Positions 4,329-64,000 of a stretch of DNA of 64,000 bases are shown in pieces. Made by a program: the position numbers and the translations under genes. Source of the stretch: Shigella phage ESh19; sequence record ON528729; one strand, 5' to 3'. Numbering within the stretch: the first letter of the stretch is position 1; each line of letters starts with the position of its first letter. The notes beneath the pieces are model-generated. The model worked only from the letters and a program-made list of their open reading frames with translations, ran no database searches and was not told where the DNA came from.

Positions 4329-4379
4329 TTTAATACCTCTTTCTCAAATTAACTTTTAACTCAACTATCAAGGAGTACA

Positions 4380-4408
4380 ATCTTACAGACTTCGTACTCC
4401 CTTGTCAA
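4380..4408 (-). promoter_or_regulatory. sigma70-like promoter (TTGACA-N17-TAAGAT) for SSB-like gene
   Basis: Minus-strand reading of 4380-4408. Confidence 0.5.
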
Positions 4409-4413
4409 ATACT

Positions 4414-4551
4414 TTAAGCAGATTTCTTAGCTGCTTTACGAGCCGTCTTACCTGTACGTACCCGCTTCTGTACATAGTGTTCAGCAGATTTACCAGCAGT
4501 TGCTTTCATGGAATCGCCAAATACTTTCTCGAATGCTTTAGAATGTTTCAT
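4414..4551 (-). CDS. small basic protein (45 aa, Lys/Arg-rich), not in ORF track
   Basis: ATG at 4551 with RBS GGAGAG 5 nt upstream; translation MKHSKAFEKVFGDSMKATAGKSAEHYVQKRVRTGKTARKAAKKSA. Confidence 0.35.
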   Translation of the reverse strand: MKHSKAFEKVFGDSMKATAGKSAEHYVQKRVRTGKTARKAAKKSA

Positions 4552-6792: not shown

Positions 6793-6985
6793 TCACACCT
6801 CTTCGTTGTAGTTCTGCCTTAAGACCGTTTTCAATCTTATCAAGCTCATGGATTTCTTCTGCAATCTCTTTCCTTCTTGAAGCGACCCTTTCAAGTCGCT
6901 CCATCATAACTTCTTTGGAAAGAGATGAGAGTTCCACTGTACGGTGGTCAATTACTTTAAAGTTATTCTCTCTCATCTTCAACAC
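6785..6985 (-). CDS. hypothetical protein (66 aa)
   Basis: ORF track; RBS AAGGTG. Confidence 0.45.
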   Translation of the reverse strand: MLKMRENNFKVIDHRTVELSSLSKEVMMERLERVASRRKEIAEEIHELDKIENGLKAELQRRGVNG

Positions 6986-6988
6986 CTT

Positions 6989-7729
6989 TTATAGATTGAT
7001 AATGGTTTTAAGTTTACTCTCTAACTCTTCCATCGTTCCGTTATTCTGGATAATATCACGGGAGAAGTTAGTGGAGATACCACGTTCAGAGCTATGGGAA
7101 GCCACCTGAATAGCATCTTTTCTTGTAATCTCAATTATCTGGCTATCATAGCTTTGAAGGAACTCAGCTTCAATATCAAATCTTAAATCACATACCAGTG
7201 CAATACCTATGTGACTTTTCTTAACGCAATCACCATAGAATTTTTCAATACGTTCTGCCAAATCTGTAATCCAGAAACGCTCTCCAAGAATTTTACGGAT
7301 AACCTCACTACCCCAGACTTGCTGTATTTGTCTTGAGGAAATCATATATTCATTTTTCAAACCAAGCTTTGTAAGCAATGTTGGCTTACCAACTTTCTTT
7401 AACTCTTTGATAAGTCTGTCTGTGATTTCCCCACAAAGTTTTGCATCATCTTGTATACCCTTGCTTTTCATGTTTATATTGAAAGCCCATGCCACACGAG
7501 AGTTAAGGTTGTCAAAATCTAAGCTAAACTTTTTAGGCGTTTCTTTCGTATCACCATATAGGTCGTGCCAGTTTAAGTCAAAGATAAACCCAGCAGTTGC
7601 TTTTAAGTTATCGGCAAACGCAAACACTTTAACAGTGTATCCAGCCTCATTCAATAGATTTTTTACAATGCTGCAAGACGTATCCTTTCCAGAACGAGCT
7701 TTTCCAGTAAATGCAATAACACTTTTCAT
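6989..7729 (-). CDS. deoxynucleoside monophosphate kinase
   Basis: MKSVIAFTGKARSGKDT matches T4 gp1 dNMP kinase P-loop (MKLIFLSGVKRSGKDT); start refined to ATG 7729 with RBS GGAGTGA. Confidence 0.6.
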   Translation of the reverse strand: MKSVIAFTGKARSGKDTSCSIVKNLLNEAGYTVKVFAFADNLKATAGFIFDLNWHDLYGDTKETPKKFSLDFDNLNSRVAWAFNINMKSKGIQDDAKLCGEITDRLIKELKKVGKPTLLTKLGLKNEYMISSRQIQQVWGSEVIRKILGERFWITDLAERIEKFYGDCVKKSHIGIALVCDLRFDIEAEFLQSYDSQIIEITRKDAIQVASHSSERGISTNFSRDIIQNNGTMEELESKLKTIINL

Positions 7730-7786
7730 ATCGTTCACTCCATAATAAAAAGCCCCCAATTAAGGAGGCTGAAGGGTATGCCACAA

Positions 7787-8581
7787 TTATTGTAGTTGAG
7801 AACCAGTGAGTTCACGCTCAGACATTGCTTCTAGCTGCTGAACAAACTCTTCACCGAAGTTGATTGCAATCTTGGTGCTAAGGACTGCTGCACCAGTTTG
7901 GCTAAATACATCCCCTAGTGCTGCTGTATGAGCACCTTGTGAAATGCTCTCTACAAAGCTTGGGTCAGACTCTAACATTTTTGACACTTCAAGTAAAGCA
8001 TGAATACCCATGATACTAAAGATAGCGTTTAACAGTGAAGTTACCTTAACCTGAATAGGGTCTAAAGAGAGACCATTAGTAATCTCTGACAGCTTATTCA
8101 TTGTCTCATCAGCGTACTGAATTGCCTTGTCAGAGACTTCATCAAAGCCCCAATCCAGTTTTGCATAACGTGGTGACTTATCATTCATACGCTTCTCTAG
8201 CGATGCCATTACAGCAGCAACTGGTGTACAAATACCTTTCAGAAGGTCTTCATCACTCATGTTATCAAGCTCTTTAATACCCTTCTCAGTAATCTGGATG
8301 TATCCACCTGAATACATTTCATCAAAGATGTATGTTGCAAAGGCATCAACACCAATGAGGATGGTTTTCAGAGCATCAGTCTTATTAGCCAGCAGGTATT
8401 CAACCTCTTTACGGAAATCTTCGTCATTCTCTACAGCGTTTTCTACAACACGCAGAGATTCAGGGATAAATTTTCCTGACAGTGAGTTGCTACGCATAAT
8501 GATAGCAAGAGTCTCAACAGTGTTCAGCATGAATGCTTCGTCAATACCTTTTTCTTCCAGAATCTCATTTACAGTTTTCAT
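7787..8581 (-). CDS. hypothetical protein (264 aa)
   Basis: ORF track. Confidence 0.5.
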   Translation of the reverse strand: MKTVNEILEEKGIDEAFMLNTVETLAIIMRSNSLSGKFIPESLRVVENAVENDEDFRKEVEYLLANKTDALKTILIGVDAFATYIFDEMYSGGYIQITEKGIKELDNMSDEDLLKGICTPVAAVMASLEKRMNDKSPRYAKLDWGFDEVSDKAIQYADETMNKLSEITNGLSLDPIQVKVTSLLNAIFSIMGIHALLEVSKMLESDPSFVESISQGAHTAALGDVFSQTGAAVLSTKIAINFGEEFVQQLEAMSERELTGSQLQ

Positions 8582-9005
8582 CTTTAATCTCTCTCATTTT
8601 GTTAATAGTAAGTCGTGATAATCTTAAGCTTTCTTGTGAAGAGAAGTCAAGTCCTTTTTCAGACCGTGGGAAGTAATTTCTGTCCCAAGTATTCTCTGCA
8701 TCCTGAAGCAGTTGGGATAGACTATCTAAGTCCGTTCCATTTTGCAACTTATTTTTTAAGGTATCTATCAAAAAGATTGTGTCTTTCGCTTTACGTCTTT
8801 CTGAAGATATCTCTTTCATGTGCTCAAATACCGAGCACTTTAAACCTTCGTCATATCCACTTGATAGTTCTATCTCATGCTGAACATCAACCATTCGACG
8901 ATGTTGATAAGCATACTCCTTCTGAGCCTCAATGTAAAGTGCTTCAACTTTTTCTAAAGCTTGGACAAGGTTATTGATATCTGGGTGAACGTACATCCTC
9001 TGCAT
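8565..9005 (-). CDS. hypothetical protein (146 aa)
   Basis: ORF track; RBS AGAGG. Confidence 0.5.
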   Translation of the reverse strand: MQRMYVHPDINNLVQALEKVEALYIEAQKEYAYQHRRMVDVQHEIELSSGYDEGLKCSVFEHMKEISSERRKAKDTIFLIDTLKNKLQNGTDLDSLSQLLQDAENTWDRNYFPRSEKGLDFSSQESLRLSRLTINKMREIKDENCK

Positions 9006-9264
9006 GATTGCCTCTGTTAAGTATCTATAAAGATTTTAATCTCTTATCTTTATGTATGTTATACATATAACTTTAAAGATTTTTAAAAGCTATTAAAAAT
9101 CTTTTAAGACTTTTAAAGAAACTGTATAGTTAATCTATAAAGGGAGTCTATTAAGATAAAACCCACTTCGAAAAGACTAACACCTTGTCAAGTAGTTTGT
9201 CAACTTGCTTTTTGAAGAAAATTGCTGTAGGGTATTATCCAGAATGATTTGAGAGGGAGTAAAA

Positions 9265-11964
9265 ATGGACAATGTAGATTTCGAAAAATTACATTTGGTT
9301 GGTGATACAGAAACTGATGGGTTGCTCCTTGAGTTTACAAAAGCACACGTAATGGCTTTCGCAGACTATAAAGATGACAGTGATGAACCTGCTGTGTGGG
9401 TTTTCACTGATGAGCCTATTCTTGGTCACAAGTACACAAAATACATCAAAGGTGGTCTGCGTGAAGGTGTTGAGTTTGCACTGAAAGCTAAACGTCTTTG
9501 CATACATAATGGTTTAGGTTATGACTGGTGGGTGTTTAATCACATTGCACCTGACCTGTGGAACTTTGAGAATCCTAAGTGCAAGCCTTGGAGTGACTTC
9601 TTTCAGGATTCACTTATCCAATCTCGCGTACAGTGGATGGATAGACCTACACCAAAAGGTTACAAAGGTGCTCATGGTTTGGCTGCATGGGGTGCTCGTG
9701 TTGGTGTTCGTAAACCAGAGATTGAAGAGTGGGGTGTCTGGAATGCAGAGATTCTTACTCGTGTTGTAGAAGATATTAAGATTAACGCCAAAACTAAACG
9801 TGCTCTTGATAATGAGTACCTCAAGCTTAAGAAGTGTGGTGTTGACACTTATGAAACCTACATGCGAGCTAAAGAAACATCTTTCTGGATGAGTCAGCAA
9901 GCTATCAACGGTTGGAAAGCTGATGTAGAACTTATGCAGTTCCACGTTAAAGAGCTTGACAAGTTAACTAATGAGTTGGCTGCTGAGGTTGAACCACACC
10001 TTCCACCAACTATTAAGACAAAAGGTAAAGTCACAGGTGAAGAATTTGCCAAGTCTTGGAATGAGTATGTAGATACATTTGGTCACGTTGACGGTTTAAA
10101 AAGGATTACCAAGTACCCTAAGACAAAGTATCGTGAACAGATGCGTGAAGGTGAGTTGAAGCAGTACCCTATCAAGCCATATGGTAAGCCAACCACAAAG
10201 ATTTTTAATGTTGAGAAACGCAACTGCTACACTCCAACTAACACGGTCACAAAAGAAGAGTACCCTGAAGGTTTTGTAGCAATGAAAGATGCTCGTGCAG
10301 TTTGTAATGAACTGAATGAGAAGATTGGCAAGAAGTGTAAAGATTGGAAGCCAGTTAAGACTGTGAAAACTGTGAAGTACTACAACGTTCACGTTGTTAA
10401 TCACTTTGAGTTAGAGTCTAGTCGCTACACTGGTTTGATTGATGCACCATTCACACCAATTGAGTTTGAAGTTTCACGAATGACTCAGGTAGCTGTGGTG
10501 AAGGATTACTTAAAATCCGTTGGCTGGATTCCTGATGATTGGAACTATAAAAAAGATTCTGACGGTCGTCCTATCAAGGTTTGCAGGTTCAAAGACAACA
10601 AAAAGATGATTCGCAAACATCCTAAGTGGGATGAGATGGTTGAACGTTGTGGGTTGAACTATATTGAGCATGAAGGTGTCTACTACATCGAGCATAACTG
10701 GTCTGTTAAGAAGTACACAGATGTGCTTGAGCCTTGCTTGATTAGGACTTCACCAAAGCTTACAGAATCTTCTTATGATACAATCGAAGGTGAGCTTGGA
10801 CAGAAGATTGCGAAGTACTATACTTTGATGCACCGACGCAGGACTATCGAGAACTCAAAGGATGATGAGAAAGGTTGGCTGAACCAGATTCGTCCAGATG
10901 GTCGTTTGAGTGCAGGTGCAATGGTGTTTGGTACTTCTACTGGACGTATGACTCAGTATGGTATTGTGAACGTACCTTCTGGTGCTGCTGTGTACGGTGA
11001 GCCAATGAGGGCAGTGTGGATTTGTGAAGAGGGAACCAACGTAGTATCTGTTGATATGAACTCTGCACAGCTTGTACTACTCTGTAACTTCATGGGTGAT
11101 AAAGATTTCACCAAAGCGGTAACAGAGGGTAAAGAAGAGATTGAGTTTGTTCGTCAAGAGGATGGAAGATACTACTGTAAACACTTTGACCAGTATCTGA
11201 ATCCAGAGATTGACAAGTATCTGCGTTACGACTCTGAAAACGATTTGTACGTAGTTTACTCAGGGACTGATGCTCATACCCTGAACAGTATCTACTTCAG
11301 CCTTAATGATGAGCAAGATATCTTGACTTGTCGTGCTACTCAGGATGAGAATCTTCTTCATGAGATTAGCAAGGGACGTAAGAAAGCTAAGAATGGTATC
11401 TATGCCCTGTTGTTCGGTGCAGGTGATGAGAAGTTTGCTAAAACAATTAAAGCAGCAACTACTCAGGAAGGTGCATTGACTAAGCAGACTTACTTTGTGC
11501 GTTTACCGAAGATTAAGAAACTGTTAGACAACTTGGAAGCTGATTTCAAAGCAACTAAGAAAGCACTTGAAGAGGTGTTTGGTAAGACTGCTGCAATAGC
11601 TAAAGGTGGATTTGTTCAGGTTGCTGGGGCGTGGTTGTGGTGTAAATCTCCACACAAACTCTTGAACTATCTGTTGATGGGTTCAGAAGCACAAGTTCAG
11701 AATGAAGCAATCAACCTTGCTTGTCGTCGTATGATTGATGAAGGTTTGATGAAACTAAATGGTCGTAAGCCAGCTATCGGTGCTCGTTTACTTTGTGCTT
11801 ACCACGACGAAACAAGCTGGGAATGCCCAGAAAGCATGACAGCAGAAGTTAAGGCAGTAACTGACTGGTATTATGGTCAAGCTTCTAAAAACTTGGGACT
11901 GAAGAAGGATACTTTGGTAACGGGTACTGGTAAGGTTGGTAAATCGTGGCTTGAAGTCCACTAA
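9265..11964 (+). CDS. DNA polymerase, family A (Pol I-like) with 3'-5' exonuclease domain
   Basis: Exo I DTETDGL; motif A VSVDMNSAQL; motif C YHDE; 899 aa; RBS GAGGGAG. Confidence 0.85.
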   Translation: MDNVDFEKLHLVGDTETDGLLLEFTKAHVMAFADYKDDSDEPAVWVFTDEPILGHKYTKYIKGGLREGVEFALKAKRLCIHNGLGYDWWVFNHIAPDLWNFENPKCKPWSDFFQDSLIQSRVQWMDRPTPKGYKGAHGLAAWGARVGVRKPEIEEWGVWNAEILTRVVEDIKINAKTKRALDNEYLKLKKCGVDTYETYMRAKETSFWMSQQAINGWKADVELMQFHVKELDKLTNELAAEVEPHLPPTIKTKGKVTGEEFAKSWNEYVDTFGHVDGLKRITKYPKTKYREQMREGELKQYPIKPYGKPTTKIFNVEKRNCYTPTNTVTKEEYPEGFVAMKDARAVCNELNEKIGKKCKDWKPVKTVKTVKYYNVHVVNHFELESSRYTGLIDAPFTPIEFEVSRMTQVAVVKDYLKSVGWIPDDWNYKKDSDGRPIKVCRFKDNKKMIRKHPKWDEMVERCGLNYIEHEGVYYIEHNWSVKKYTDVLEPCLIRTSPKLTESSYDTIEGELGQKIAKYYTLMHRRRTIENSKDDEKGWLNQIRPDGRLSAGAMVFGTSTGRMTQYGIVNVPSGAAVYGEPMRAVWICEEGTNVVSVDMNSAQLVLLCNFMGDKDFTKAVTEGKEEIEFVRQEDGRYYCKHFDQYLNPEIDKYLRYDSENDLYVVYSGTDAHTLNSIYFSLNDEQDILTCRATQDENLLHEISKGRKKAKNGIYALLFGAGDEKFAKTIKAATTQEGALTKQTYFVRLPKIKKLLDNLEADFKATKKALEEVFGKTAAIAKGGFVQVAGAWLWCKSPHKLLNYLLMGSEAQVQNEAINLACRRMIDEGLMKLNGRKPAIGARLLCAYHDETSWECPESMTAEVKAVTDWYYGQASKNLGLKKDTLVTGTGKVGKSWLEVH

Positions 11965-12025
11965 TAGTGTTGACAAGGTGCTCATGGAAGAGTACCTTAT
12001 ACTATATATTATATAGGAGACTTGT

Positions 12026-12226
12026 ATGACTATTTCAGAAATTGAAGTTCAACTGCAATGTGCTGGATATTCTCAAAGTGAGATTGAGGCTATGTGCATC
12101 ATCATTTGCAGTAGCCATAAGCACCTCAAGCTTTCTAATGAAAATCTTAGCAAGGTTGATATTTTTATTGCTGGAGGTAAGATTATCAAGGATAAGACAG
12201 GATACCTTAAAGGTGAACGTCTATGA
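12026..12226 (+). CDS. hypothetical protein (66 aa)
   Basis: ORF track; RBS TAGGAGA. Confidence 0.45.
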   Translation: MTISEIEVQLQCAGYSQSEIEAMCIIICSSHKHLKLSNENLSKVDIFIAGGKIIKDKTGYLKGERL

Positions 12227-12432
12227 GCCATCGTGGAAGAACTCATCTCGCTATGATGCAAGGTGCTTCAAAAGAGACTATCAAGAATCGGAAGAAAACT
12301 CTTTTTGACAGAATGAATAGACTCATTGATAATGCGAGCCTACCTAACTCTGAAAAGGTTTTCTTGAAAGGGAATCTGAAGAGTATTGCACAGGAACTTA
12401 TTGACATTGAATTTTGGAGACACCAAAAATGA
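12223..12432 (+). CDS. hypothetical protein (69 aa)
   Basis: ORF track. Confidence 0.45.
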   Translation: MSHRGRTHLAMMQGASKETIKNRKKTLFDRMNRLIDNASLPNSEKVFLKGNLKSIAQELIDIEFWRHQK

Positions 12433-58175: not shown

Positions 58176-58223
58176 AGCCCCTTAAAATGGATTCGATAGA
58201 ATCTATCTCATAGGGGCTTTTTA
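58176..58223 (+). terminator. terminator-like hairpin (CAGCCCCT...AGGGGCT then TTTTT) ending plus-strand cluster
   Basis: Stem with nested GATTC/GAATC hairpin followed by T5. Confidence 0.45.
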
Positions 58224-58339
58224 TTGAGTAAATTTACGAAATTTATAATTTTTATAAAATTTGGGATTCACTCCGTTCATCTTGGGTCACCATGATATGT
58301 GATAAAATATCTATACCCTTCTAAACACCCTCTCTAAGC

Positions 58340-58590
58340 ATCATCTCTATATAGTATTATATAGTATCTATATAGCCTCTTAGTCTCTAAATAGTGCTCT
58401 CTATATAGCCCTCTATAAAGCCTTCTAAGCCTACCATTAATCAACCCTATACAATCACCTTCCTAACCTCTTTCTAGCCCCTTAGAAGCCCCTATACCCA
58501 TCTTAATCTCTATGTCCAAGATAGTACCCTATATAGCAGAATCACTAGGTATTACTAAGCCTCTATATAGACTGTTATATAGCACTAAAC
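58340..58590. repeat. cluster of CTATATAG / TATAGCC short motifs on pyrimidine-rich plus strand
   Basis: ctatatagtattatatagtatctatatagcc ... ctctatatagccc ... cctatatagcag ... ctctatatagactgttatatagc. Confidence 0.5.
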
Positions 58591-58799
58591 AGGTATTCCC
58601 TTCTAAGGCTTATTCTACAAGGTCTAACACGGTACTAACAAGGTCTCTTATAAACCTGTTAATTCCTGTTTTATATAAGATAGTGTATAGATAGTTATTC
58701 AGAATTATAAAATTTTTATAAAATAGACTAGGTAGTGTTTATTTAGGGGTCTTTGGAGAATCTGAAAAATATCTACTTAGGGTGTATATCTGCTTGGTA

Positions 58800-59310
58800 G
58801 CCCTTAACAGCCCTGTAACATCCCCTTTGCAAAATCTTAAAATATCATTAACAATCTCTTAACAACTCTCCCAAGCTCTTAACATCTCTTCAAAGGTCTT
58901 AACAGTTTCTTAACAGAACTAACAAGGGTGTAACAAGAGTTTAATAGTACTTACAAGAATCTAACAAGTTGCTTATAAGTTGCTAAATAGTTAAATCTTA
59001 AGAGTTATTTTGTTAAGATAATTAACAAGATACTAACAAGTTCTAAACCTTTTTAACAAGCTATTAACATGGTCACTATCTCTTCTCTTATCGTTCCCTA
59101 TCCCTCTCAGTGATTCTCTAAACATACCTCTTAAAAGCCCTGTATAGCTCTGTGTGGCCTCTTCTAAGATTCTTACTAGTATCTATAGCCCAACTGACTA
59201 TATAGCTCTTTATAGCCCTTTATAGGGACTTATACAGGGACTTCAAAGTGTCTAACAAGCTTTTAACATACATCTAACAAGGATTTAACAAGGGGCTAAC
59301 AAGTCTCTAA
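58800..59310. repeat. array of degenerate about 10-11 bp tandem repeats (CTTAACAAG / CTAACAAG-like units)
   Basis: More than 20 units such as tcttaacaac, tcttaacatc, gtcttaacag, aactaacaag, aatctaacaag, gctaacaag, with roughly helical-turn periodicity. Confidence 0.6.
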
Positions 59311-59368
59311 TAAGCATAACTATGTTGCATTTGTTAAGATTTTGTTAAGAGAATGTAAAGGGGGCTAA

Positions 59369-59409
59369 CTTTTACGTTACTTTTAAGGTTCTTTTACGTT
59401 ACTTTTAAG
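59369..59409 (+). repeat. 19-bp perfect direct repeat CTTTTACGTTACTTTTAAG x2 (22-bp period)
   Basis: Copies at 59369-59387 and 59391-59409. Confidence 0.6.
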
Positions 59410-59771
59410 CTCTTTTTAGTCTCCATAACACATTATTAAGTAACTTTCAAGCACCTGTTTAACCATTCACAAGATACTAACGAGATAATAAAGCTTATAC
59501 CCCTTATAAGATTCTTTTAAGGCTCTAGAAAGCTCTATAAAGGGCTTTTAAGAAGTGGTTAATATGATTGCTTAAGATGAGATGATAAGCCCGTATAGAG
59601 CGTTATAGAGCGTTTTAGAGATTGCCCTTCCCTTTCGGGTTATGGGCTTATATTTAAGGGAAAGATTAGTTGACTTGATAAGATGATATAGAGTAAGCTA
59701 TAGAGTTATTGTTCTAAAGGTCTGGTAAGATTCTAGGAAGGGTTCTGTATAGAGTCCTATCTCATAGACGT

Positions 59772-59795
59772 AAAAAAGCCCCATCTAAGGGGCTG
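59772..59795 (-). terminator. rho-independent terminator (AGCCCC-ATCTAA-GGGGCT then UUUUUU on minus)
   Basis: 6-bp stem preceded on plus by A6; lies 3' of the minus-strand early gene array. Confidence 0.55.
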
Positions 59796-59835
59796 TAAAG
59801 GTGTCTGGGGCTATTTGCCCCGTTGCGGCGTCTTG

Positions 59836-60084
59836 TTAGTTCCTGCCAACCTTATCATAGTAAATAGAGATTATAGCATCTTCCCAATAGTGGTATGAGT
59901 AACCATCATTAATGGCCTCATTGACGGCAAAGTTCCAATAATCCTTTTCAGGGTTATAATCACTAATTACTGCAATGACAAGAGATTTCAGTAGTTTTTC
60001 TGGTAATTCAGAATTAGCAAGGTCTAATTTTGCATCAAGGATATAAGCACCAAAGTTGTTTACAGTAACACGTAAAGTAGCCAT
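59836..60084 (-). CDS. early protein, hypothetical (82 aa)
   Basis: ORF track; own promoter/leader cassette upstream. Confidence 0.55.
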   Translation of the reverse strand: MATLRVTVNNFGAYILDAKLDLANSELPEKLLKSLVIAVISDYNPEKDYWNFAVNEAINDGYSYHYWEDAIISIYYDKVGRN

Positions 60085-60147
60085 TTTCAGATTCTCCAGT
60101 TTAGGAATTTTAGGTTAGTGGGGAAGTTTCCCTCCCCGTTGAAAGTA

Positions 60148-60176
60148 ATATTAATTCATTGCTGCATAAGTTGCAA
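60148..60176 (-). promoter_or_regulatory. early promoter TTGCAA-N17-TAATAT with conserved leader (hairpin GGGGAGGGAAACTTCCCC, RBS AACTGGAGAATC)
   Basis: Minus-strand reading; overlaps 3' end of upstream gene 60151..60414. Confidence 0.55.
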
Positions 60177-60414
60177 GTCTTTTTTCATTGTATTTTGTAA
60201 GAATCTCACAAGATAAAACGTCATACTTTGCAACGGCTTCAGATTTAGTTAAACCGAAATGGCTTACAATTTCACCATTCATGTATCCAACTACTTCATA
60301 AGATTCTGCGACGATTTCACCGTTGAACCAATCACTTTCAATACGTTTGCAAAGTTGGATATCTTCTTTGTCAGTACCGATTTGTAACAGGATAGTGATT
60401 TCTTGATTATTCAT
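60151..60414 (-). CDS. early protein, hypothetical (87 aa)
   Basis: ORF track; cassette upstream. Confidence 0.55.
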   Translation of the reverse strand: MNNQEITILLQIGTDKEDIQLCKRIESDWFNGEIVAESYEVVGYMNGEIVSHFGLTKSEAVAKYDVLSCEILTKYNEKRLATYAAMN

Positions 60415-60473
60415 TTTCTAGTCTCCAGTTTAGGATTGTTGGGGAAGGTCATTCCCTCCCCGTTGATAAGTAC

Positions 60474-60500
60474 TTTATAGATTTACGATGATTTCGTCAA
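60474..60500 (-). promoter_or_regulatory. early promoter TTGACG-N15-TATAAA with conserved leader
   Basis: Minus-strand reading; spacer shorter than optimal. Confidence 0.4.
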
Positions 60501-61002
60501 GCTCTTTTTGCATATCTTTTACGGATTTTTCGTGTAATTTAATCATATCATTTAATGCTTGCCCTAACTGTAAATTGAAATCAATATCTTTTGTCTCACT
60601 AAGGTAAATACTTTCTACATCGTAAAGGTGGCAAGGATGACAACCTGTTCCCATTGCCTGAGTACCAAAAGCCAATGGCATGATATACATGTTATGAGAC
60701 TTGATAGAGCGTTCATAAGCCATTTTAAAGCGGTTTAATTCTGCCTTTGATGATTTGATGCAGTGTTCACAAAGTTCGGCTACCAGTTCCATAAAATCCG
60801 GTAGAATTGTTGCAACAGCTTTCATAAAGTTGTCTGCTGTTACTGCCTTAACGTTTTGGCGATGTACATAATACTTTTTATCTTCCCCTTTCGTAATGAC
60901 TGCAAACAACTTGTCATTGCAGCGAAATTCGAAGGTGTCTTTTACTGGCTTGCTCATCACTGCATTGGAACGGATATGGTTGATTGCTTGGAACTTATTC
61001 AT
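60475..61002 (-). CDS. early protein, hypothetical (175 aa, CHPCH motif)
   Basis: ORF track; cassette upstream. Confidence 0.55.
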   Translation of the reverse strand: MNKFQAINHIRSNAVMSKPVKDTFEFRCNDKLFAVITKGEDKKYYVHRQNVKAVTADNFMKAVATILPDFMELVAELCEHCIKSSKAELNRFKMAYERSIKSHNMYIMPLAFGTQAMGTGCHPCHLYDVESIYLSETKDIDFNLQLGQALNDMIKLHEKSVKDMQKELDEIIVNL

Positions 61003-61063
61003 TCTAGATTCTCCAGTTTAGGAATTTTGTTTAGTGGGGAAGTTTCCCTCCCCGTTGATGAAT

Positions 61064-61092
61064 ACTTTACTTGTTTTGATTCTGCATTGCAA
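61064..61092 (-). promoter_or_regulatory. early promoter TTGCAA-N17-TAAAGT with conserved leader
   Basis: Minus-strand reading of gattctgcattgcaag...acttta. Confidence 0.55.
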
Positions 61093-61207
61093 GTAGTTTT
61101 TTATCAAAAACTTTATCTGAGATTTCACCAATGATAAGCATTGCTAATGGCAACACAACAGAAACAATCATACCGCAAAGGATAGGGTTTTTAATGATAT
61201 CTAACAT
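61067..61207 (-). CDS. small hydrophobic early peptide (46 aa), not in ORF track
   Basis: ATG 61207 preceded by the conserved RBS cassette; translation MLDIIKNPILCGMIVSVVLPLAMLIIGEISDKVFDKKLLAMQNQNK. Confidence 0.5.
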   Translation of the reverse strand: MLDIIKNPILCGMIVSVVLPLAMLIIGEISDKVFDKKLLAMQNQNK

Positions 61208-61245
61208 TTAGTGATTCTCCAGTTTAGGAAGTTGCCTTTTGAAGA

Positions 61246-61274
61246 TACTATATAGATATGATTAGACCTTTGCA
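61246..61274 (-). promoter_or_regulatory. early promoter TTGCAA-N17-TATAGT
   Basis: Minus-strand reading. Confidence 0.5.
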
Positions 61275-61402
61275 AGTACTTTTACGCTTATCTATAAAGA
61301 ATCTATTAAGTTAATCCCTTTTAGATAAACCCCCTCGAACAAAGTTACACTTGTCAAGGGGCATTGTCAATAGTTTTTCAAAAGATTTTTATAAGTTGTT
61401 GA

Positions 61403-61744
61403 TTAGCTTATAAAGATTTTTTCTGGCTTAATATAGGTTAATGACTGTTTTTTAAGCAAATCAGACCAAATGAGCGCGGCAATGTGACTATATCCCTTTT
61501 CTCTTAACTCCTGCATAGCTGATTTGCGAGTCTCGAAACGTGTAGCATAGTATTCAGTGTTAAGGGTAGTTTTATTCCCTTCATTGTCAACATGTACAAC
61601 CTGCATCACTTGAAAGGGGCTTACATCTTCTCCCCTGTTCCACTGCTCAAAGTATTTGAGACACTGCATAGGTGTCATTTTGTCGTTAACTTGGGTAGAC
61701 CATGACGAATTTTCTTTATCGGTGATAATTGTTACATAGGCCAT
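61403..61744 (-). CDS. early protein, hypothetical (113 aa)
   Basis: ORF track; cassette upstream. Confidence 0.55.
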   Translation of the reverse strand: MAYVTIITDKENSSWSTQVNDKMTPMQCLKYFEQWNRGEDVSPFQVMQVVHVDNEGNKTTLNTEYYATRFETRKSAMQELREKGYSHIAALIWSDLLKKQSLTYIKPEKIFIS

Positions 61745-61806
61745 TTTTTGAATCTCCAGTTTAGGAATTTTGTTTAGTGGGGAAGTCTCCCTCCCCGTTG
61801 ATGAAT

Positions 61807-61835
61807 ACTTTACTTGTTTGCGTTTTCAGTGTCAA
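61807..61835 (-). promoter_or_regulatory. early promoter TTGACA-N17-TAAAGT with conserved leader
   Basis: Minus-strand reading; consensus -35. Confidence 0.6.
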
Positions 61836-62066
61836 CTACTTTTCTATAAGAATTTCATAATCACCATTCACACTGTCAAAGTAAATACCTTCATCATCTT
61901 CTGATTTATAGTAACATTGGATATCATCTGATGCAGGGTAGTCTTGCCTTGCTATCTGACAGGCAACAATAGCATTATTTTCACTACCTGTAAACTCTTC
62001 TAAACCTTTAAAGTCACATTGTGAACCATTGCAGATAGATAGGATAAGATAGATTGTAGTAAGCAT
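61836..62066 (-). CDS. early secreted protein with signal peptide (76 aa)
   Basis: MLTTIYLILSICNGSQC hydrophobic N-terminus. Confidence 0.5.
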   Translation of the reverse strand: MLTTIYLILSICNGSQCDFKGLEEFTGSENNAIVACQIARQDYPASDDIQCYYKSEDDEGIYFDSVNGDYEILIEK

Positions 62067-62129
62067 CTTTTAAGCCTCTTGTAAGCCCCTGTGCGGGGCT
62101 TTTATAGTGAACTGGTATGATTCTATGAT

Positions 62130-62687
62130 TTATGCTGTTAAGTCGTTTATAGCCGTTTCTACTACGTTGCTTTGCATTGTGTCAAAGATATCACAATATA
62201 CATTGCTCATCTCATCACTACGTTGGACTATTGCCGCAATGTTGCGTAATTCATCCGGTATATAGCCCAAGTTCCTATTATTCAGGTTAGGGACAAAGAA
62301 AGGCGCATACATAGCATTAAATTCAGTTGTGTAAATCTTTTTAATCCATTCTTTATCGAAATATTCTGTAAAGCTTGCTACGTCGCTCATGTTCTCACAG
62401 CTCCAGTCATCTTGTAAATCATCTTCTGGAATATCCAGTTCCAAGATAACAAGTTTTTGTGACTTCATTTGATAGGCTGCTGTAATGCTTGCGCTATCAA
62501 GCGCGTTTCTAATACCTTCATCTGTGATTTGTTCGTCATCCAGATTCTCTACATCATAGAACTTGTTAACAGGGTAGACGTAAAAACATCCATCCATATC
62601 AGAGCAATTCCAGACTCCTGATGGTTTATCACCGCCATTGATAAGGTTTACGAAGTTTTCTTGTGTAGTACCGTGGAAGCATTTCAT
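62130..62687 (-). CDS. putative ADP-ribosyltransferase (H-Y-E / diphtheria-toxin-PARP-like motif), acidic early protein (185 aa)
   Basis: N-terminal FHGTTQENFVNLINGG resembles YHGT of diphtheria toxin and WHGSRTTNFAGILSQG of PARP; candidate Tyr (GCFYVY) and Glu (ILELD) downstream. Confidence 0.4.
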   Translation of the reverse strand: MKCFHGTTQENFVNLINGGDKPSGVWNCSDMDGCFYVYPVNKFYDVENLDDEQITDEGIRNALDSASITAAYQMKSQKLVILELDIPEDDLQDDWSCENMSDVASFTEYFDKEWIKKIYTTEFNAMYAPFFVPNLNNRNLGYIPDELRNIAAIVQRSDEMSNVYCDIFDTMQSNVVETAINDLTA

Positions 62688-62737
62688 TTTTGATTCTCCA
62701 GTTTAGGATTGTTGGTAAAGCTCTTTATCTGGGGCTT

Positions 62738-62766
62738 AAGATACTAGCTTTTAAACCCCATGTAAA
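62738..62766 (-). promoter_or_regulatory. early promoter TTTACA-N17-TATCTT (class B leader with GGGG...CCCC)
   Basis: Minus-strand reading. Confidence 0.5.
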
Positions 62767-62771
62767 GCACT

Positions 62772-63020
62772 TTATTTAGTTTTCTTTGTAAAGATTAGTT
62801 TAACGGCAACAGTTGGTAACTCTTCAATACTTGTGAACAAAGTCACTTTTTGAGTCTTGACATTATAGCCATACTTTGAACCATAAGCTGTAAAACGGTT
62901 TACAATGTAACTGTAAGTTTTTGCAGTGTTATCTGGCATATGATATAAAAACGGCTTGCCAAGGTTATCAAGTTGTGTTAAGAGTCGGCAGGTATCAGGG
63001 ATATTCAGCATATTAAACAT
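62772..63020 (-). CDS. early protein, hypothetical (82 aa)
   Basis: ORF track; cassette upstream. Confidence 0.55.
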   Translation of the reverse strand: MFNMLNIPDTCRLLTQLDNLGKPFLYHMPDNTAKTYSYIVNRFTAYGSKYGYNVKTQKVTLFTSIEELPTVAVKLIFTKKTK

Positions 63021-63078
63021 TTTCAGATTCTCCAGTTTAGGATTGTTGGGGGCTTCTAACTTGCCCCGTTGATGAGTA

Positions 63079-63107
63079 CTCTACTACTATGTTTTTGCAA
63101 TGTCAAT
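63079..63107 (-). promoter_or_regulatory. early promoter TTGACA-N17-TAGAGT with conserved leader
   Basis: Minus-strand reading. Confidence 0.55.
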
Positions 63108-63514
63108 CAAATCTCTGAATAAATCGCATCGCAGATTTCACGGAAAACTTCGACCGGTAAGTTACGCTGTAACCATGTTGCAAAGAAATCAGCAATTGCA
63201 AAGTTTGCATCAAAATCAACACATAGCCACACTTTAACAGCAAATCGAAACATTTTCAAGTCAAGTTCTTTATTCATTACTTTTGACTTTGACAGCATTT
63301 CCTTCATCTCATATTGAGCACCATCAATTATAGCCCCTGCTGCTACATCTTGCAAGGACTCTTTAAGCTGTTTTGTGTCTACTACTACGCCCTGAATTTT
63401 GCCGATGATATTATGCAGTGTTTCGTCTGGCGCTGCTGATGTTACAATGTTGATGCGGTTAATGGTCAAACGTGCTTTCAAAATTGCAACTTCTTTGTGA
63501 TTAACATTAGTCAT
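63107..63514 (-). CDS. early protein, hypothetical (135 aa)
   Basis: ORF track; cassette upstream. Confidence 0.55.
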   Translation of the reverse strand: MTNVNHKEVAILKARLTINRINIVTSAAPDETLHNIIGKIQGVVVDTKQLKESLQDVAAGAIIDGAQYEMKEMLSKSKVMNKELDLKMFRFAVKVWLCVDFDANFAIADFFATWLQRNLPVEVFREICDAIYSEI

Positions 63515-63566
63515 TTTCTAGTCTCCAGTTTAGGTTAGTTTTAGATAAATCTCTTTATCTGGGGCT

Positions 63567-63595
63567 ATCTTATCAACTTGATAACCCCATGTAAA
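63567..63595 (-). promoter_or_regulatory. early promoter TTTACA-N17-TAAGAT (class B leader)
   Basis: Minus-strand reading. Confidence 0.5.
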
Positions 63596-63603
63596 GCAAT
63601 TTA

Positions 63604-63876
63604 TTAGACTAAATACAACTTTTTACCACTAACAATAATGTAACTTACACCGCTATTACTATAAACATCTTGATAAATTCTGCGTAACTTTCCAAGGTAT
63701 CGAACTTTCCAAGATGTAGGAATTTTCTTTCCATATCCTGTAGCGGTTTTTTGTAACCCTGCTACTTGCCAATCTAATAGGTGCTGTTCTGCTCTTAACT
63801 CTTCAAAGTTTAATACACCGTCTACATAGTGTTTTAAAGTTACGTTCAAAGTGCGACCGTCATTAGTAGTATACAT
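63604..63876 (-). CDS. early protein, hypothetical (90 aa)
   Basis: ORF track; cassette upstream. Confidence 0.55.
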   Translation of the reverse strand: MYTTNDGRTLNVTLKHYVDGVLNFEELRAEQHLLDWQVAGLQKTATGYGKKIPTSWKVRYLGKLRRIYQDVYSNSGVSYIIVSGKKLYLV

Positions 63877-63931
63877 TTTAGATTCTCCAGTTTAGGATTG
63901 TTGGGGGCTTCTAACTTGCCCCGTTGATGAA

Positions 63932-63961
63932 TACTTTACTTGTTTTGATTCTGCATTGCAA
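63932..63961 (-). promoter_or_regulatory. early promoter TTGCAA-N18-TAAAGT with conserved leader
   Basis: Same sequence as copy at 61064-61092. Confidence 0.5.
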
Positions 63962-64000
63962 GCTCTTTTTTATTAATTTCTTGAGCTATTACAATATAAT

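What the first reader, a model, noticed from the sequence alone, without database searches (positions are those of the whole stretch)
59836..63961. Array of about ten monocistronic early genes, each with a reiterated promoter-leader-RBS cassette
Every small minus-strand gene in this region is preceded by nearly the same element: a sigma70-like promoter (TTGACA/TTGCAA/TTTACA, 17-nt spacer, TAAAGT/TAATAT/TAGAGT/TAAGAT), a leader hairpin in two classes (GGGGAGGGAAACTTCCCC/GGGGGCAAGTTAGAAGCCCCC, or GGGG...CCCC spanning the promoter), and an invariant RBS block TCCTAAACTGGAGAATC before the ATG. Several promoters lie inside the 3' coding end of the upstream gene. This looks like a recombination-prone accessory locus of host-takeover or anti-defence genes; the conserved leader could be a shared regulatory or RNase/translational-repressor target. 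A 46-aa membrane peptide (61067..61207) is only detectable because it carries the cassette.
Basis: seen in the sequence. Interest (0 to 1): 0.65.

Follow-up and report, generated by a model that had tools for sequence, protein, structure and literature searches.

The report
Promoter–hairpin gene cassettes in Felix-O1-like phage
A Felix-O1-like phage carries a row of small unknown genes, each separated by the same promoter, hairpin and ribosome-site cassette, and comparison with relatives shows that genes are gained and lost exactly at these cassettes, as already described for T4-like phages.

Summary
The window comes from a Mooglevirus (Ounavirinae, Felix-O1-like), about 96% identical to Shigella phage Henu11.

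- **Repeat:** the 13-nt block CCTAAACTGGAGA occurs 9 times at 60093-63896. All copies are on the minus strand, 6-9 nt before 9 of the 10 ATGs. It occurs nowhere else in the 64 kb.
- **Cassette types:** six are class A, with a sigma70-like promoter, 17-nt spacer and a G4..C4 hairpin 10 nt after the -10. Two are class B, with the hairpin wrapped around the spacer and -10. One has no hairpin.
- **Exception:** gene 5 has no cassette.

Across 16 related arrays, insertions, deletions and duplications have their junctions in the ~30-nt block before the ATG. One slot has six different contents. The promoter-hairpin part travels with the upstream gene.

This meets every computationally testable feature of PeSLs (promoter-early stem-loops), described so far only in T4-like phages.

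"Monocistronic" is not supported. There is one canonical terminator, at the array end, and the class B hairpin looks selected in read-through RNA.

No RegB homologue was found. The genes have unknown functions, except that one model has an ADP-ribosyltransferase-like fold.

Verdict: a new member of a known kind, of moderate interest.

The parts
63874..63961 (-). Cassette 1 (class A). -35 TTGCAA at 63956-63961, -10 TAAAGT at 63933-63938, hairpin GGGGCAAGTTAGAAGCCCC at 63904-63922, core at 63884-63896, ATG at 63876.
   Evidence: fold. Its promoter half is identical to cassette 8 and its hairpin-core half to cassette 3, so it is a mosaic.
63604..63876 (-). Gene 1, 90 aa, family G06, PHROG 3436 (unknown function).
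   Evidence: Absent from the pEC-M719 array.
63512..63595 (-). Cassette 2 (class B). -35 TTTACA at 63590-63595, -10 TAAGAT (preceded by TG) at 63567-63572, hairpin at 63561-63588 spanning the spacer and -10, core at 63522-63534.
63107..63514 (-). Gene 2, 135 aa, family G07, PHROG 4327.
   Evidence: Orthologue of Felix O1 ORF20, which was maximal at 5 min.
63018..63106 (-). Cassette 3 (class A). -35 TTGACA at 63101-63106, -10 TAGAGT at 63078-63083, hairpin at 63049-63067, core at 63029-63041.
   Evidence: In Moogle this cassette is fused directly to gene 4 because gene 3 is absent.
62772..63020 (-). Gene 3, 82 aa, family G08, PHROG 9030. A variable module.
   Evidence: Absent in Moogle, SFPB and pEC-M719, and replaced by other families in wV8 and SP116.
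62685..62766 (-). Cassette 4 (class B). -35 TTTACA at 62761-62766, -10 TATCTT at 62738-62743, hairpin at 62731-62759, core at 62695-62707.
62130..62687 (-). Gene 4, 185 aa, family G09, PHROG 3303. The predicted fold resembles ADP-ribosyltransferases.
62084..62100 (-). Hairpin AGCCCCGCACAGGGGCT between genes 4 and 5. No promoter, no core, no T-run.
   Evidence: -13.4 kcal/mol. The wV8 record calls the equivalent element a terminator.
61836..62066 (-). Gene 5, 76 aa, family G10, PHROG 4640. It has its own AAGAGG site and no cassette, so it is probably co-transcribed with gene 4.
61742..61835 (-). Cassette 6 (class A). -35 TTGACA at 61830-61835, -10 TAAAGT at 61807-61812, hairpin GGGGAGGGAGACTTCCCC at 61779-61796, core at 61753-61765. 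This is the main insertion hot spot.
   Evidence: Six different contents are found at this junction in 16 arrays. Junctions lie at -34 to -1 relative to the ATG.
61403..61744 (-). Gene 6, 113 aa, family G13, PHROG 4318.
   Evidence: Orthologue of Felix O1 ORF21, maximal at 5 min.
61330..61361 (-). C-run to G-run hairpin CCCCTTGACAAGTGTAACTTTGTTCGAGGGGG, followed by TTTATCT, inside the 195-nt gap after gene 6. It may be a terminator or a sub-array boundary.
   Evidence: The function is an inference; it was not folded or tested.
61205..61275 (-). Cassette 7 (no hairpin). -35 TTGCAA at 61270-61275, -10 TATAGT at 61247-61252, core at 61216-61228.
   Evidence: In Moogle and HP1 it drives the 175-aa gene directly.
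61067..61207 (-). Gene 7, 46 aa, family G14, PHROG 7482. One hydrophobic helix. A variable module.
   Evidence: Present in 7 arrays and absent from 8 that cover this slot. Its C-terminal LAMQNQNK is encoded by the promoter of cassette 8.
61000..61092 (-). Cassette 8 (class A). -35 TTGCAA at 61087-61092, -10 TAAAGT at 61064-61069 (its TAA is the stop codon of gene 7), hairpin GGGGAGGGAAACTTCCCC at 61036-61053, core at 61010-61022.
60475..61002 (-). Gene 8, 175 aa, family G15, PHROG 4725.
   Evidence: The model has pLDDT 90.5 but the fold search was uninformative. Orthologue of Felix O1 ORF22, maximal at 5 min.
60412..60500 (-). Cassette 9 (class A). -35 TTGACG at 60495-60500 inside gene 8, -10 TAAAGT at 60472-60477 (its TAA is the stop codon of gene 8), hairpin at 60441-60461, core at 60422-60434.
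60151..60414 (-). Gene 9, 87 aa, family G16, PHROG 7022.
   Evidence: Absent in Felix O1 and SP116.
60082..60176 (-). Cassette 10 (class A). -35 TTGCAA at 60171-60176 inside gene 9, -10 TAATAT at 60148-60153 (its TAA is the stop codon of gene 9), hairpin at 60120-60137, core at 60093-60105.
   Evidence: Silverhawkium and SFPB carry an extra gene at this junction.
59836..60084 (-). Gene 10, 82 aa, family G17, PHROG 4559. The last gene of the array.
59807..59821 (-). Cassette remnant CAAC-GGGGCAAATAGCCCC after the last gene. It is a class-A-type hairpin without promoter or core.
59772..59794 (-). The only canonical intrinsic terminator of the array: AGCCCCTTAGATGGGGCT followed by TTTTTT.
   Evidence: Annotated as a terminator in the Mordin, Moogle and Michonne records.

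Best explanation
**What it is.** This is the promoter-distal half of a roughly 7-kb hyperplastic array of small genes of unknown function. It lies next to the right genome terminus of a Felix-O1-like myovirus (Mooglevirus).

**Cassette anatomy.** The genes are separated by 60-90-bp composite cassettes of the PeSL type (promoter-early stem-loop). Each cassette has four parts:
- an A-tract;
- a host sigma70 promoter with a -35, exactly 17 nt, and a -10 of the form TAnnnT;
- a G4..C4 stem-loop, placed either 10 nt after the -10 (class A) or around the spacer and -10 (class B);
- a standard translation-start block, (A)ACAAT or AAATT, then CCTAAACTGGAGA, then 6-9 nt, then ATG.

**Shown here.** The anatomy and its confinement to the array are shown. 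So are its conservation across Ounavirinae, selection for hairpin pairing on the sense strand, and indel and duplication junctions that fall in the ~30-nt block before the ATG.

**Inferred.**
- Host RNA polymerase fires at each cassette soon after infection. Without strong terminators, this gives nested, overlapping transcripts that end at the single terminator at 59772-59794.
- The hairpin acts in RNA. It would be a 3' barrier or attenuator for transcripts arriving from upstream, and in class A also a 5'-terminal stabiliser of the transcript that starts 3-4 nt before it.
- The identical core blocks serve as crossover points for homologous recombination or replication slippage. The exchanged module is therefore [ATG-ORF-stop-hairpin-promoter], and it always lands in an expressed context.
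For: **Confinement.** The core occurs 9 times in the window's array and 0 times elsewhere. Henu11 has 14 copies, all on one strand and all in its array. There are none in the other Henu11 sequence fetched, which covers the part of the genome outside the window.

**Promoter signature.** Among 44 distinct class A copies from 10 genomes, information peaks at the A-tract, at TTG of the -35, at TA...T of the -10 and at ATCAAC-GGGG. The 17-nt spacer carries little information.

**Hairpins.**
- All variants fold.
- For class B, 94% of cells pair and 4 pairs change on both sides. No shuffle of 500 reached the covariation score, and slid controls gave 32-56% pairing.
- The sense strand is the more stable in 18 of 20 class B variants, with 19 G.U pairs against 6.

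**Plasticity.**
- The blastn breakpoints of the four indel events resolved on both sides lie at -34 to +2 of the ATG. For the fifth event (Silverhawkium) only one breakpoint, at -9, could be placed.
- The slot at cassette 6 has six states in 16 arrays.
- Michonne carries a tandem duplication with its junction inside a cassette.
- Cassettes 1, 3 and 8 of the window are mosaics of each other.

**Module boundary.** The noncoding part 5' of the core is 0.71 identical when the upstream gene is shared. It is 0.57 identical when the downstream gene is shared, against a background of 0.54.

**Gene content.** All ten genes belong to PHROG families of unknown function.

**Timing.** Four Felix O1 orthologues were maximal at 5 min.

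**Definition.** The PeSL definition and its G(n)-loop-C(n) stem come from PMC2839356 and PMC4122927.
Against: - No transcript ends, reporter data or recombination intermediates exist for any Ounavirinae phage in the searchable literature.
- The lax promoter scan is not enriched over shuffles in this AT-rich DNA: 19 found against 14.8 expected. The argument therefore rests on position and conservation.
- The -10 hexamers match the consensus at only 4 of 6 positions.
- The cassette hairpins have no U-tract, so termination is unproven.
- Gene order is almost collinear in all 16 arrays. Only one possible relocation was seen, at 40% identity. The evidence shows gain, loss and duplication rather than free shuffling.
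- Only intergenic junctions give viable phages, so some clustering of junctions is expected from selection alone.
- Three Felix O1 orthologues peaked at 25 min.
- The copies are related by descent and conversion, so the covariation and Mann-Whitney figures overstate independence.
Confidence: 0.75

Rival explanations
1. The cassettes are ordinary conserved early promoters and ribosome sites inherited by duplication. They regulate expression but play no part in gene gain and loss. Junctions map to them only because breaks elsewhere would be lethal or would silence a gene.
For: - Gene order is nearly collinear in 16 arrays.
- Intergenic DNA is only slightly more conserved than coding DNA, at 82-91% against 79-90%.
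- A viability filter favours intergenic junctions (inference).
Against: - Junctions fall in the last ~35 nt before the ATG, not anywhere in the 60-195-nt spacers.
- Mosaic cassettes and a variant shared by two paralogous copies in the window point to exchange between copies.
- One slot has six different contents.
- Tandem duplications have cassette junctions.
Confidence: 0.15
2. The invariant 13-nt block is the binding or cleavage site of a phage-encoded post-transcriptional regulator. This would be a RegB-like GGAG endonuclease or a RegA-like repressor that switches the whole array off together. It does not exclude the main explanation.
For: - Eight invariant bases lie upstream of a 4-nt GGAG, and ribosome pairing does not need them (sequence).
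- UCC and GGA pair around the loop UAAACU in every leader fold.
- The Felixounavirus variant CCTTAAACTAGGAGA adds a T and an A, which lengthen this stem by one pair.
- T4 RegB cleaves GGAG in early ribosome sites (T4 record note).
Against: - No RegB homologue was found by tblastn in the window plus the other Henu11 and Mordin sequence fetched. The Mordin 'RegB-like' note refers to a vs.1 homologue.
- The stem has only 3-4 pairs.
- The two-variant pattern is a single evolutionary event.
- Invariance can also come from recombination homology or from translation efficiency.
- No Rfam family matches.
Confidence: 0.2
3. The hairpins are efficient terminators or RNase processing sites, so each gene ends up on its own monocistronic mRNA.
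For: - A PeSL stem-loop reduced lacZ expression as strongly as rrnB T1 in RB49/phi1 (PMC2839356).
- Hairpins follow nearly every stop codon.
- Sense-specific G.U pairs point to an RNA role.
- The class B element is a 15-pair interrupted helix.
Against: - No T-run follows any cassette hairpin. The scan finds only one canonical terminator on this strand in an intergenic position, at the array end.
- Genes 4-5, and the G04-G05 pair in relatives, have no promoter between them.
Confidence: 0.3
4. The repeats are an assembly or sequencing artefact.
For: None found. Sf14 has a duplicated gene at its record end that may be assembly-related.
Against: The same cassette is present in 245 independently sequenced phage records. 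It is annotated as repeats in the wV8 and Mordin records and listed in the Felix O1 paper.
Confidence: 0.01

Closest known systems
PeSLs (promoter-early stem-loops) of T4-like phages RB49/phi1, T4/PST and KVP40/nt-1 (Arbiol et al. 2010, PMC2839356; Comeau et al. 2014, PMC4122927)
   Same: - AT-rich upstream region, sigma70-type promoter with 17-nt spacer, and a stem-loop built on G-run and C-run.
- The stem-loop sits in different registers relative to the promoter: after the -10, over the -10, or inside the spacer.
- A Shine-Dalgarno site and ATG lie at the 3' end.
- The elements are confined to hyperplastic regions full of ORFans.
- Indels between close relatives are bounded by the elements, and crossovers occur between the -10 and the ATG.
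   Different: - The host phage belongs to Ounavirinae, not Straboviridae.
- The sequences are not homologous.
- A 13-nt pre-ATG block is invariant across genera.
- Here the promoter-hairpin part co-segregates with the upstream gene, and promoters overlap its last codons.
- Promoter activity, terminator activity and mini-circles have not been tested.
T4 early-gene GGAG sites cleaved by the RegB endoribonuclease
   Same: An early-gene cluster in which every ribosome site contains GGAG in an A-rich context.
   Different: No RegB homologue was detected. The conserved context is a fixed 13-mer rather than a loose motif. Cleavage was not tested.
Phage morons (gene flanked by its own promoter and terminator)
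   Same: Small accessory genes that carry their own expression signals and are inserted between other genes.
   Different: Morons lack shared flanking sequence and are thought to arrive by illegitimate recombination. Here, identical flanks define the junctions.
Integron gene-cassette arrays
   Same: A one-directional array of small, mostly unknown genes, with presence and absence in units bounded by a repeated site.
   Different: No integrase or attC-type site is present, each unit carries its own promoter, and exchange is presumably by general homology.
5'-terminal stem-loop mRNA stabilisers such as the ompA leader (Emory, Bouvet and Belasco 1992; cited from my own knowledge)
   Same: The class A hairpin would begin 3-4 nt from the predicted 5' end of the transcript.
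   Different: The start site is predicted, not mapped. The class B hairpin lies upstream of its own start.

Membership tests
PeSL (promoter-early stem-loop) cassettes | Repeated intergenic motif containing a sigma70-like promoter (-35, ~17 nt, -10) | tested here: met
   The logo of 44 class A and 38 class B distinct copies shows conserved hexamers and a variable 17-nt spacer.
PeSL (promoter-early stem-loop) cassettes | AT-rich tract upstream of the -35 | tested here: met
   A conserved A-tract lies 5' of the class A -35, and ATAAAGT lies 5' of the class B -35.
PeSL (promoter-early stem-loop) cassettes | Stable stem-loop, typically polyG..polyC, with G-T pairs tolerated | tested here: met
   GGGG..CCCC stems of -4 to -16 kcal/mol. 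Covariation is seen in class B.
PeSL (promoter-early stem-loop) cassettes | Stem-loop occupies different positions relative to the promoter (subclasses) | tested here: met
   After the -10 in class A, and over the spacer and -10 in class B. It lies inside the spacer in Silverhawkium at L008 9114.
PeSL (promoter-early stem-loop) cassettes | Shine-Dalgarno site and start codon of the downstream gene at the 3' end | tested here: met
   GGAG lies 8-11 nt before the ATG in all 9 copies.
PeSL (promoter-early stem-loop) cassettes | Concentrated in hyperplastic regions rich in ORFans, absent from conserved modules | tested here: met
   The core is found only in the array. All products are of unknown function.
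PeSL (promoter-early stem-loop) cassettes | Indels between close relatives are bounded by the elements | tested here: met
PeSL (promoter-early stem-loop) cassettes | Demonstrated promoter and terminator or attenuator activity | not testable with these tools
   This needs reporter fusions or transcript-end mapping. No canonical U-tract follows the cassette hairpins.
PeSL (promoter-early stem-loop) cassettes | Formation of cassette-bounded mini-circles during infection | not testable with these tools
   This needs inverse PCR or long-read sequencing of infected cells.
PeSL (promoter-early stem-loop) cassettes | Occurrence in T4-like myoviruses (the described range, not a mechanistic requirement) | tested here: not met
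   The window is a Mooglevirus of the Ounavirinae. All PeSL papers found concern T4-like phages.
RegB-controlled early mRNAs (T4) | GGAG within the Shine-Dalgarno site of early genes | tested here: met
   All 9 cores contain GGAG.
RegB-controlled early mRNAs (T4) | Phage encodes a RegB endoribonuclease | tested here: not met
   tblastn with T4 RegB against the window plus the Henu11, Mordin and Felix O1 loci gave a best E-value of 5.7. The gene annotated 'RegB-like' is a vs.1 homologue, at E-values of 3e-10 to 4e-13.
Intrinsic (rho-independent) terminators | G+C-rich hairpin followed directly by a T-run | tested here: not met
   This holds for the cassette hairpins. The feature is met only by the element at 59772-59794.
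Known RNA families (Rfam 15) | Match to a curated covariance model | tested here: not met
   Only two chance-level hits, at E-values of 0.23 and 0.8 and far below the gathering scores.

The most novel reading that the evidence does not exclude
The invariant 13-nt block folds into a small hairpin (UCC(U)-UAAACU-(A)GGA) that hides the ribosome site. This hairpin could be the operator of a still unidentified phage-encoded global switch. The switch would be a translational repressor or a GGAG-specific endonuclease unrelated to RegB, and it would shut off the whole ORFan regulon at once. Alternatively, the block could be the target of a dedicated recombination helper, which would make the array an integron-like system without an integrase.
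Probability: 0.12. Interest if true: 0.7.

Novelty: new member of a known kind. Interest (0 to 1): 0.42.

Why it matters
**Generality.** If confirmed, PeSL-type cassettes would not be a peculiarity of T4-like phages. They would be a convergent and general way for virulent phages to keep a plug-in bay of accessory genes. Each module brings the promoter for its downstream neighbour, and every junction is a standard translation start.

**Open question on transcription.** The Felix O1 genome paper stated that promoters and temporal control could not be identified. These cassettes supply candidate promoters for this region of the genome in a group widely used for Salmonella and E. coli typing, biocontrol and therapy.

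**Practical uses.**
- The cassettes mark safe insertion sites that are already expressed, which is useful for phage engineering.
- They explain much of the gene-content difference between otherwise near-identical isolates.
- They are a caution for RBS-targeted knockdown screens such as the one done on SUSP1. Array genes share their ribosome-site sequence, so guides may cross-react (inference, not checked).

Tried and rejected
- **RegB hypothesis.** T4 regB was fetched. tblastn found no homologue, and the Mordin 'RegB-like' note turned out to refer to a vs.1 homologue.
- **Rfam.** Nothing was found.
- **Protein families.** Pfam, NCBIfam and PDB sequence searches of the ten proteins gave nothing above threshold.
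- **Gene-order swap.** I first thought that the 65-aa and 73-aa genes had swapped order between Mordin and Sf14. Clustering showed that the two 65-aa genes are unrelated families, so this was withdrawn.
- **5' hairpin in class B.** A second small 5' hairpin in class B transcripts (GAUAAA-GAGA-UUUAUC) forms only in the GAGATTTATC variant, so it is not general.
- **Class A covariation.** A hand-built arms-only alignment of class A hairpins (A3) had inconsistent trimming and was not used for counting. Per-variant folds were used instead.
- **First co-segregation test.** It included 30 nt of upstream coding sequence and was biased. It was repeated on noncoding sequence only.
- **Literature.** No transcript mapping for any Ounavirinae phage was found. 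The wV8 paper text mentions neither repeats nor promoters. The CRISPRi-ART supplement search for the gene names tried (gp097, gp101, gp108, SUSP1_gp097) found nothing.
- **Tool failures.** Searches failed: a strand error, a file path error, no answer from the script machine, and the afdb50 library being unavailable.

Full report
**1. Identity of the window**

Megablast of 59800-64000 finds 249 phage records. The best are Shigella phage Henu11 and Citrobacter phage BSwM KMM2, at 96% identity over 94% of the query. All are 82-90-kb Felix-O1-like myoviruses of the genera Mooglevirus, Felixounavirus and Suspvirus in the subfamily Ounavirinae.

In relatives the array continues beyond the window end. 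It holds 13-18 genes over about 7 kb. It begins after a conserved rIIB, vs.1-like, polynucleotide kinase, spanin and macro-domain block, and it ends at a terminator.

**2. The observation**

Ten minus-strand ORFs lie at 59836-63876.

The 13-mer CCTAAACTGGAGA occurs nine times exactly, always on the minus strand and 6-9 nt before an ATG. It occurs nowhere else in the 64 kb. Shuffles gave a mean of 2.2 matches at up to 2 mismatches, and none of 100 reached 10.

In Henu11 all 14 copies are in the array and on one strand. The further Henu11 sequence fetched, which covers the part of the genome outside the window, has none.

The cassettes fall into three types.
- **Class A (cassettes 1, 3, 6, 8, 9, 10).** TTGACA, TTGCAA or TTGACG, then 17 nt, then TAAAGT, TAGAGT or TAATAT, then ~10 nt ending in CAAC, then a GGGG..CCCC hairpin, then AACAAT or ACTAAACAAAATT, then the core.
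- **Class B (cassettes 2, 4).** TTTACA, then 17 nt, then TAAGAT or TATCTT, with the hairpin GGGG..CCCC spanning the spacer and -10. This is followed by AGATAAAGAG(C/A)TTTA(C/T)C and the core.
- **Cassette 7.** TTGCAA, 17 nt, TATAGT, and no hairpin.

Gene 5 (61836-62066) has no cassette. It has only a hairpin and its own AAGAGG ribosome site.

In cassettes 1, 8, 9 and 10 the upstream stop codon is the TAA of the -10 hexamer. In cassettes 3 and 6 the stop codon abuts the -35.

**3. Are the promoters and hairpins more than look-alikes?**

The generic promoter scan is not enriched in this AT-rich DNA, with 19 sites found against 14.8 expected. Consensus counting therefore proves nothing here.

The informative evidence is the conservation profile. 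I collected 44 distinct class A copies (58 in all) and 38 distinct class B copies (53 in all) from ten genomes. Information is high at an upstream A-tract, at TTG of the -35, at TA...T of the -10 and at ATCAAC-GGGG. It is low across a spacer that is always 17 nt, even where that spacer encodes the C-terminus of the upstream protein. This is the pattern expected of working sigma70 promoters.

The hairpins fold in every variant, and whole leaders have z-scores of -2.2 to -4.1.

For class B I used an alignment of the stem arms only, which I built from the hairpin ends and which therefore leans towards the structure. On it, 94% of cells pair and four pairs change on both sides. No shuffle of 500 reaches the observed covariation, and slid controls fall to 32-56% pairing.

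The sense strand folds better than the antisense strand in 18 of 20 class B variants, with 19 G.U pairs against 6. The GGGGAGG-type class A stems behave the same way. This points to a role in sense RNA, or in sense single-stranded DNA, rather than to a double-stranded DNA binding site.

The class B hairpin lies upstream of its own predicted start. An RNA role therefore requires transcripts that arrive from upstream.

**4. Monocistronic or not?**

Only one canonical terminator exists on this strand in an intergenic position. It lies at 59772-59794 after the last gene, and three related records annotate it as a terminator.

No cassette hairpin is followed by a T-run. Genes 4-5 have no promoter between them, and neither does the G04-G05 pair in relatives.

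The likeliest picture is a set of nested transcripts from many promoters, attenuated to an unknown degree at the hairpins. In RB49/phi1 a PeSL stem-loop did reduce lacZ expression as strongly as rrnB T1, so substantial termination cannot be excluded.

**5. Comparative evidence for exchange at the cassettes**

I clustered the array ORFs of the window and 15 relatives. Order is almost collinear, but units come and go.
- **Junction after G10 (window cassette 6).** It is empty in the window and six other arrays. Elsewhere it holds G11+G12, G12, G12+G19, G21 or G23.
- **G07-G09 interval.** It holds G08, nothing, G22, G24+G22 or G22+G08.
- **46-aa gene (G14).** Present in 7 arrays and absent from 8.
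- **G20.** An extra gene in two phages.
- **G06.** Missing in one phage.
- **Duplications.** Michonne has a tandem duplication of G02 that leaves a 9-codon stub at the junction ATG|CTTTACATGGGG. Sf14 has a duplicated G13 at its record end.

The blastn breakpoints between the window and Mordin, Michonne, Sf14, Moogle and HP1 all lie at -34 to +2 of an ATG, inside the shared block. For Silverhawkium only the breakpoint at -9 could be placed.

The part of the cassette 5' of the core follows the upstream gene. On noncoding sequence only, identity is 0.71 when the upstream gene is shared and the downstream gene differs. In the reverse case it is 0.57, against a background of 0.54. The Mann-Whitney p-value is 1e-16, but the pairs are not independent.

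The exchanged unit is therefore ATG-ORF-stop-hairpin-promoter. This explains why promoters overlap the last codons of the preceding gene. It also explains why the same gene sits behind class A in one phage and class B in another.

The window's cassettes are themselves mosaics. Cassette 1 has the promoter of cassette 8 and the hairpin and core of cassette 3. Cassettes 1 and 3 share an extra C in the hairpin that Henu11 lacks at both places. This suggests conversion between copies.

One possible relocation was seen. Mordin_114 has a 40%-identical homologue at the head of the SP116 array.

**6. Comparison with what is known**

The anatomy and behaviour match the definition of PeSLs in T4-like phages. 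That definition covers an AT-rich tract, a sigma70 promoter with N17, a G(n)-loop-C(n) stem in several registers, a Shine-Dalgarno site and ATG at the 3' end, location in hyperplastic ORFan regions, and indels bounded by the elements. Every feature that can be tested computationally is met.

Promoter activity, terminator activity and mini-circles cannot be tested here. All papers found that use the term concern T4-like phages.

In the Felix O1 group the repeats were recorded but not interpreted.
- The Felix O1 paper lists the 57-bp and 39-bp repeats between genes 15/16, 19/20, 18/19 and 20/21. It also states that promoters and temporal control could not be identified.
- The wV8 record annotates DR_1 to DR_9 at these sites, while the wV8 paper says nothing about repeats or promoters.
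- The Mordin record marks a 14-bp repeat_region before each ribosome site.

I therefore file this as a new member of a known kind.

**7. The invariant core**

Only GGAG can pair with 16S rRNA, so the eight bases before it need another explanation. Candidates are recombination homology, translation efficiency, or a regulator site.

All leader folds pair UCC with GGA around the loop UAAACU. The Felixounavirus variant CCTTAAACTAGGAGA inserts a T and an A, which add one pair to that stem. This is a single event and a weak stem, so I treat it as a lead only.

A RegB-type mechanism is not supported by homology. No Rfam family matches.

**8. The genes**

All ten match full-length PHROG families of unknown function. 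None has a Pfam or NCBIfam match above threshold.

Homologues of the 185-aa and 175-aa proteins come almost entirely from records of Ounavirinae phages or contigs of that genome size.

**9. Timing**

Felix O1 RT-PCR placed ORF16, 20, 21 and 22 at maximum at 5 min, and ORF17, 19 and 23 at 25 min. ORF20, 21 and 22 are orthologues of window genes 2, 6 and 8, and ORF19 and 23 of genes 1 and 10. This is semi-quantitative and only partly supports 'early'.

**10. Verdict**

The best explanation is a set of PeSL-type cassettes acting both as expression units and as exchange points (confidence 0.75). The roles of the hairpin and of the invariant core remain open. Interest is moderate.

Noticed in passing
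[not shown]
   Followed up: partly
window 58200-59800, especially 58796-59365: This is a 1.6-kb noncoding stretch between convergent transcription units. Positions 58796-59365 are 87% identical to the 570-bp terminal repeat annotated in phage HP1, so the genome terminus probably lies ~400 nt beyond the array terminator. The stretch is packed with short repeats (yTAACAAG; CTATAnAGCCC), often 10-11 or 31 nt apart.
   Followed up: partly
window 61067-61092 and 63933-63970: Two unrelated proteins end in the same peptide, LAMQNQNK*, because the promoter of the next cassette encodes it. They are the 46-aa gene and the gene that runs off the window end. Protein C-termini here are by-products of the regulatory cassette.
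   Followed up: partly
window 59807-59821 and 59772-59794: After the last gene comes a class-A-type hairpin (CAAC-GGGGCAAATAGCCCC) with neither promoter nor core. It is followed by the true terminator, which is preceded by CTTTACA, the class B -35 motif. This looks like decayed cassette material at the array end.
   Followed up: no
window 61208-61402: This unusually long 195-nt spacer is conserved in relatives. It holds a C-run to G-run hairpin (61330-61361) that contains TTGACA and is followed by TTTATCT. It may be a terminator that splits the array into two sub-arrays.
   Followed up: no
L006 (Felix O1) 7896-9058; L009 (wV8) gp18-gp26: Felixounavirus arrays use a second core variant, CCTTAAACTAGGAGA. 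Relative to CCTAAACTGGAGA it has a T and an A inserted, and together they extend the small stem around the loop UAAACU by one pair.
   Followed up: partly
L007 (Michonne) 4377-4470; L004 (Sf14) 9484-10269: Michonne has a tandem duplication of an 85-aa gene whose junction joins a complete ribosome site and ATG directly to a class B -35, leaving a 9-codon stub ORF. Sf14 has a duplicated 113-aa gene at the very end of its record, which may be real or may be an assembly effect of the repeats.
   Followed up: partly
L001 (Mordin) 1-447, locus tag Mordin_137: The record note 'similar to T4 endoribonuclease RegB' appears to be a mislabel. The gene is a homologue of T4 vs.1, the neighbour of regB, and nothing in the sequences searched resembles RegB.
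   Followed up: yes
window 63049-63067 and 63904-63922: The hairpins of cassettes 1 and 3 share an extra C (GCCCCC) in the window. Henu11 lacks it at both orthologous places, which suggests recent conversion between the two copies 855 bp apart.
   Followed up: partly
L013 (SUSP1) array, 5500-12230: SUSP1 was used in a published RBS-targeted dCas13d knockdown screen and carries the same cassettes. Guides against one array gene's ribosome site may therefore also match other array genes. This was not checked against the published guide sequences.
   Followed up: no
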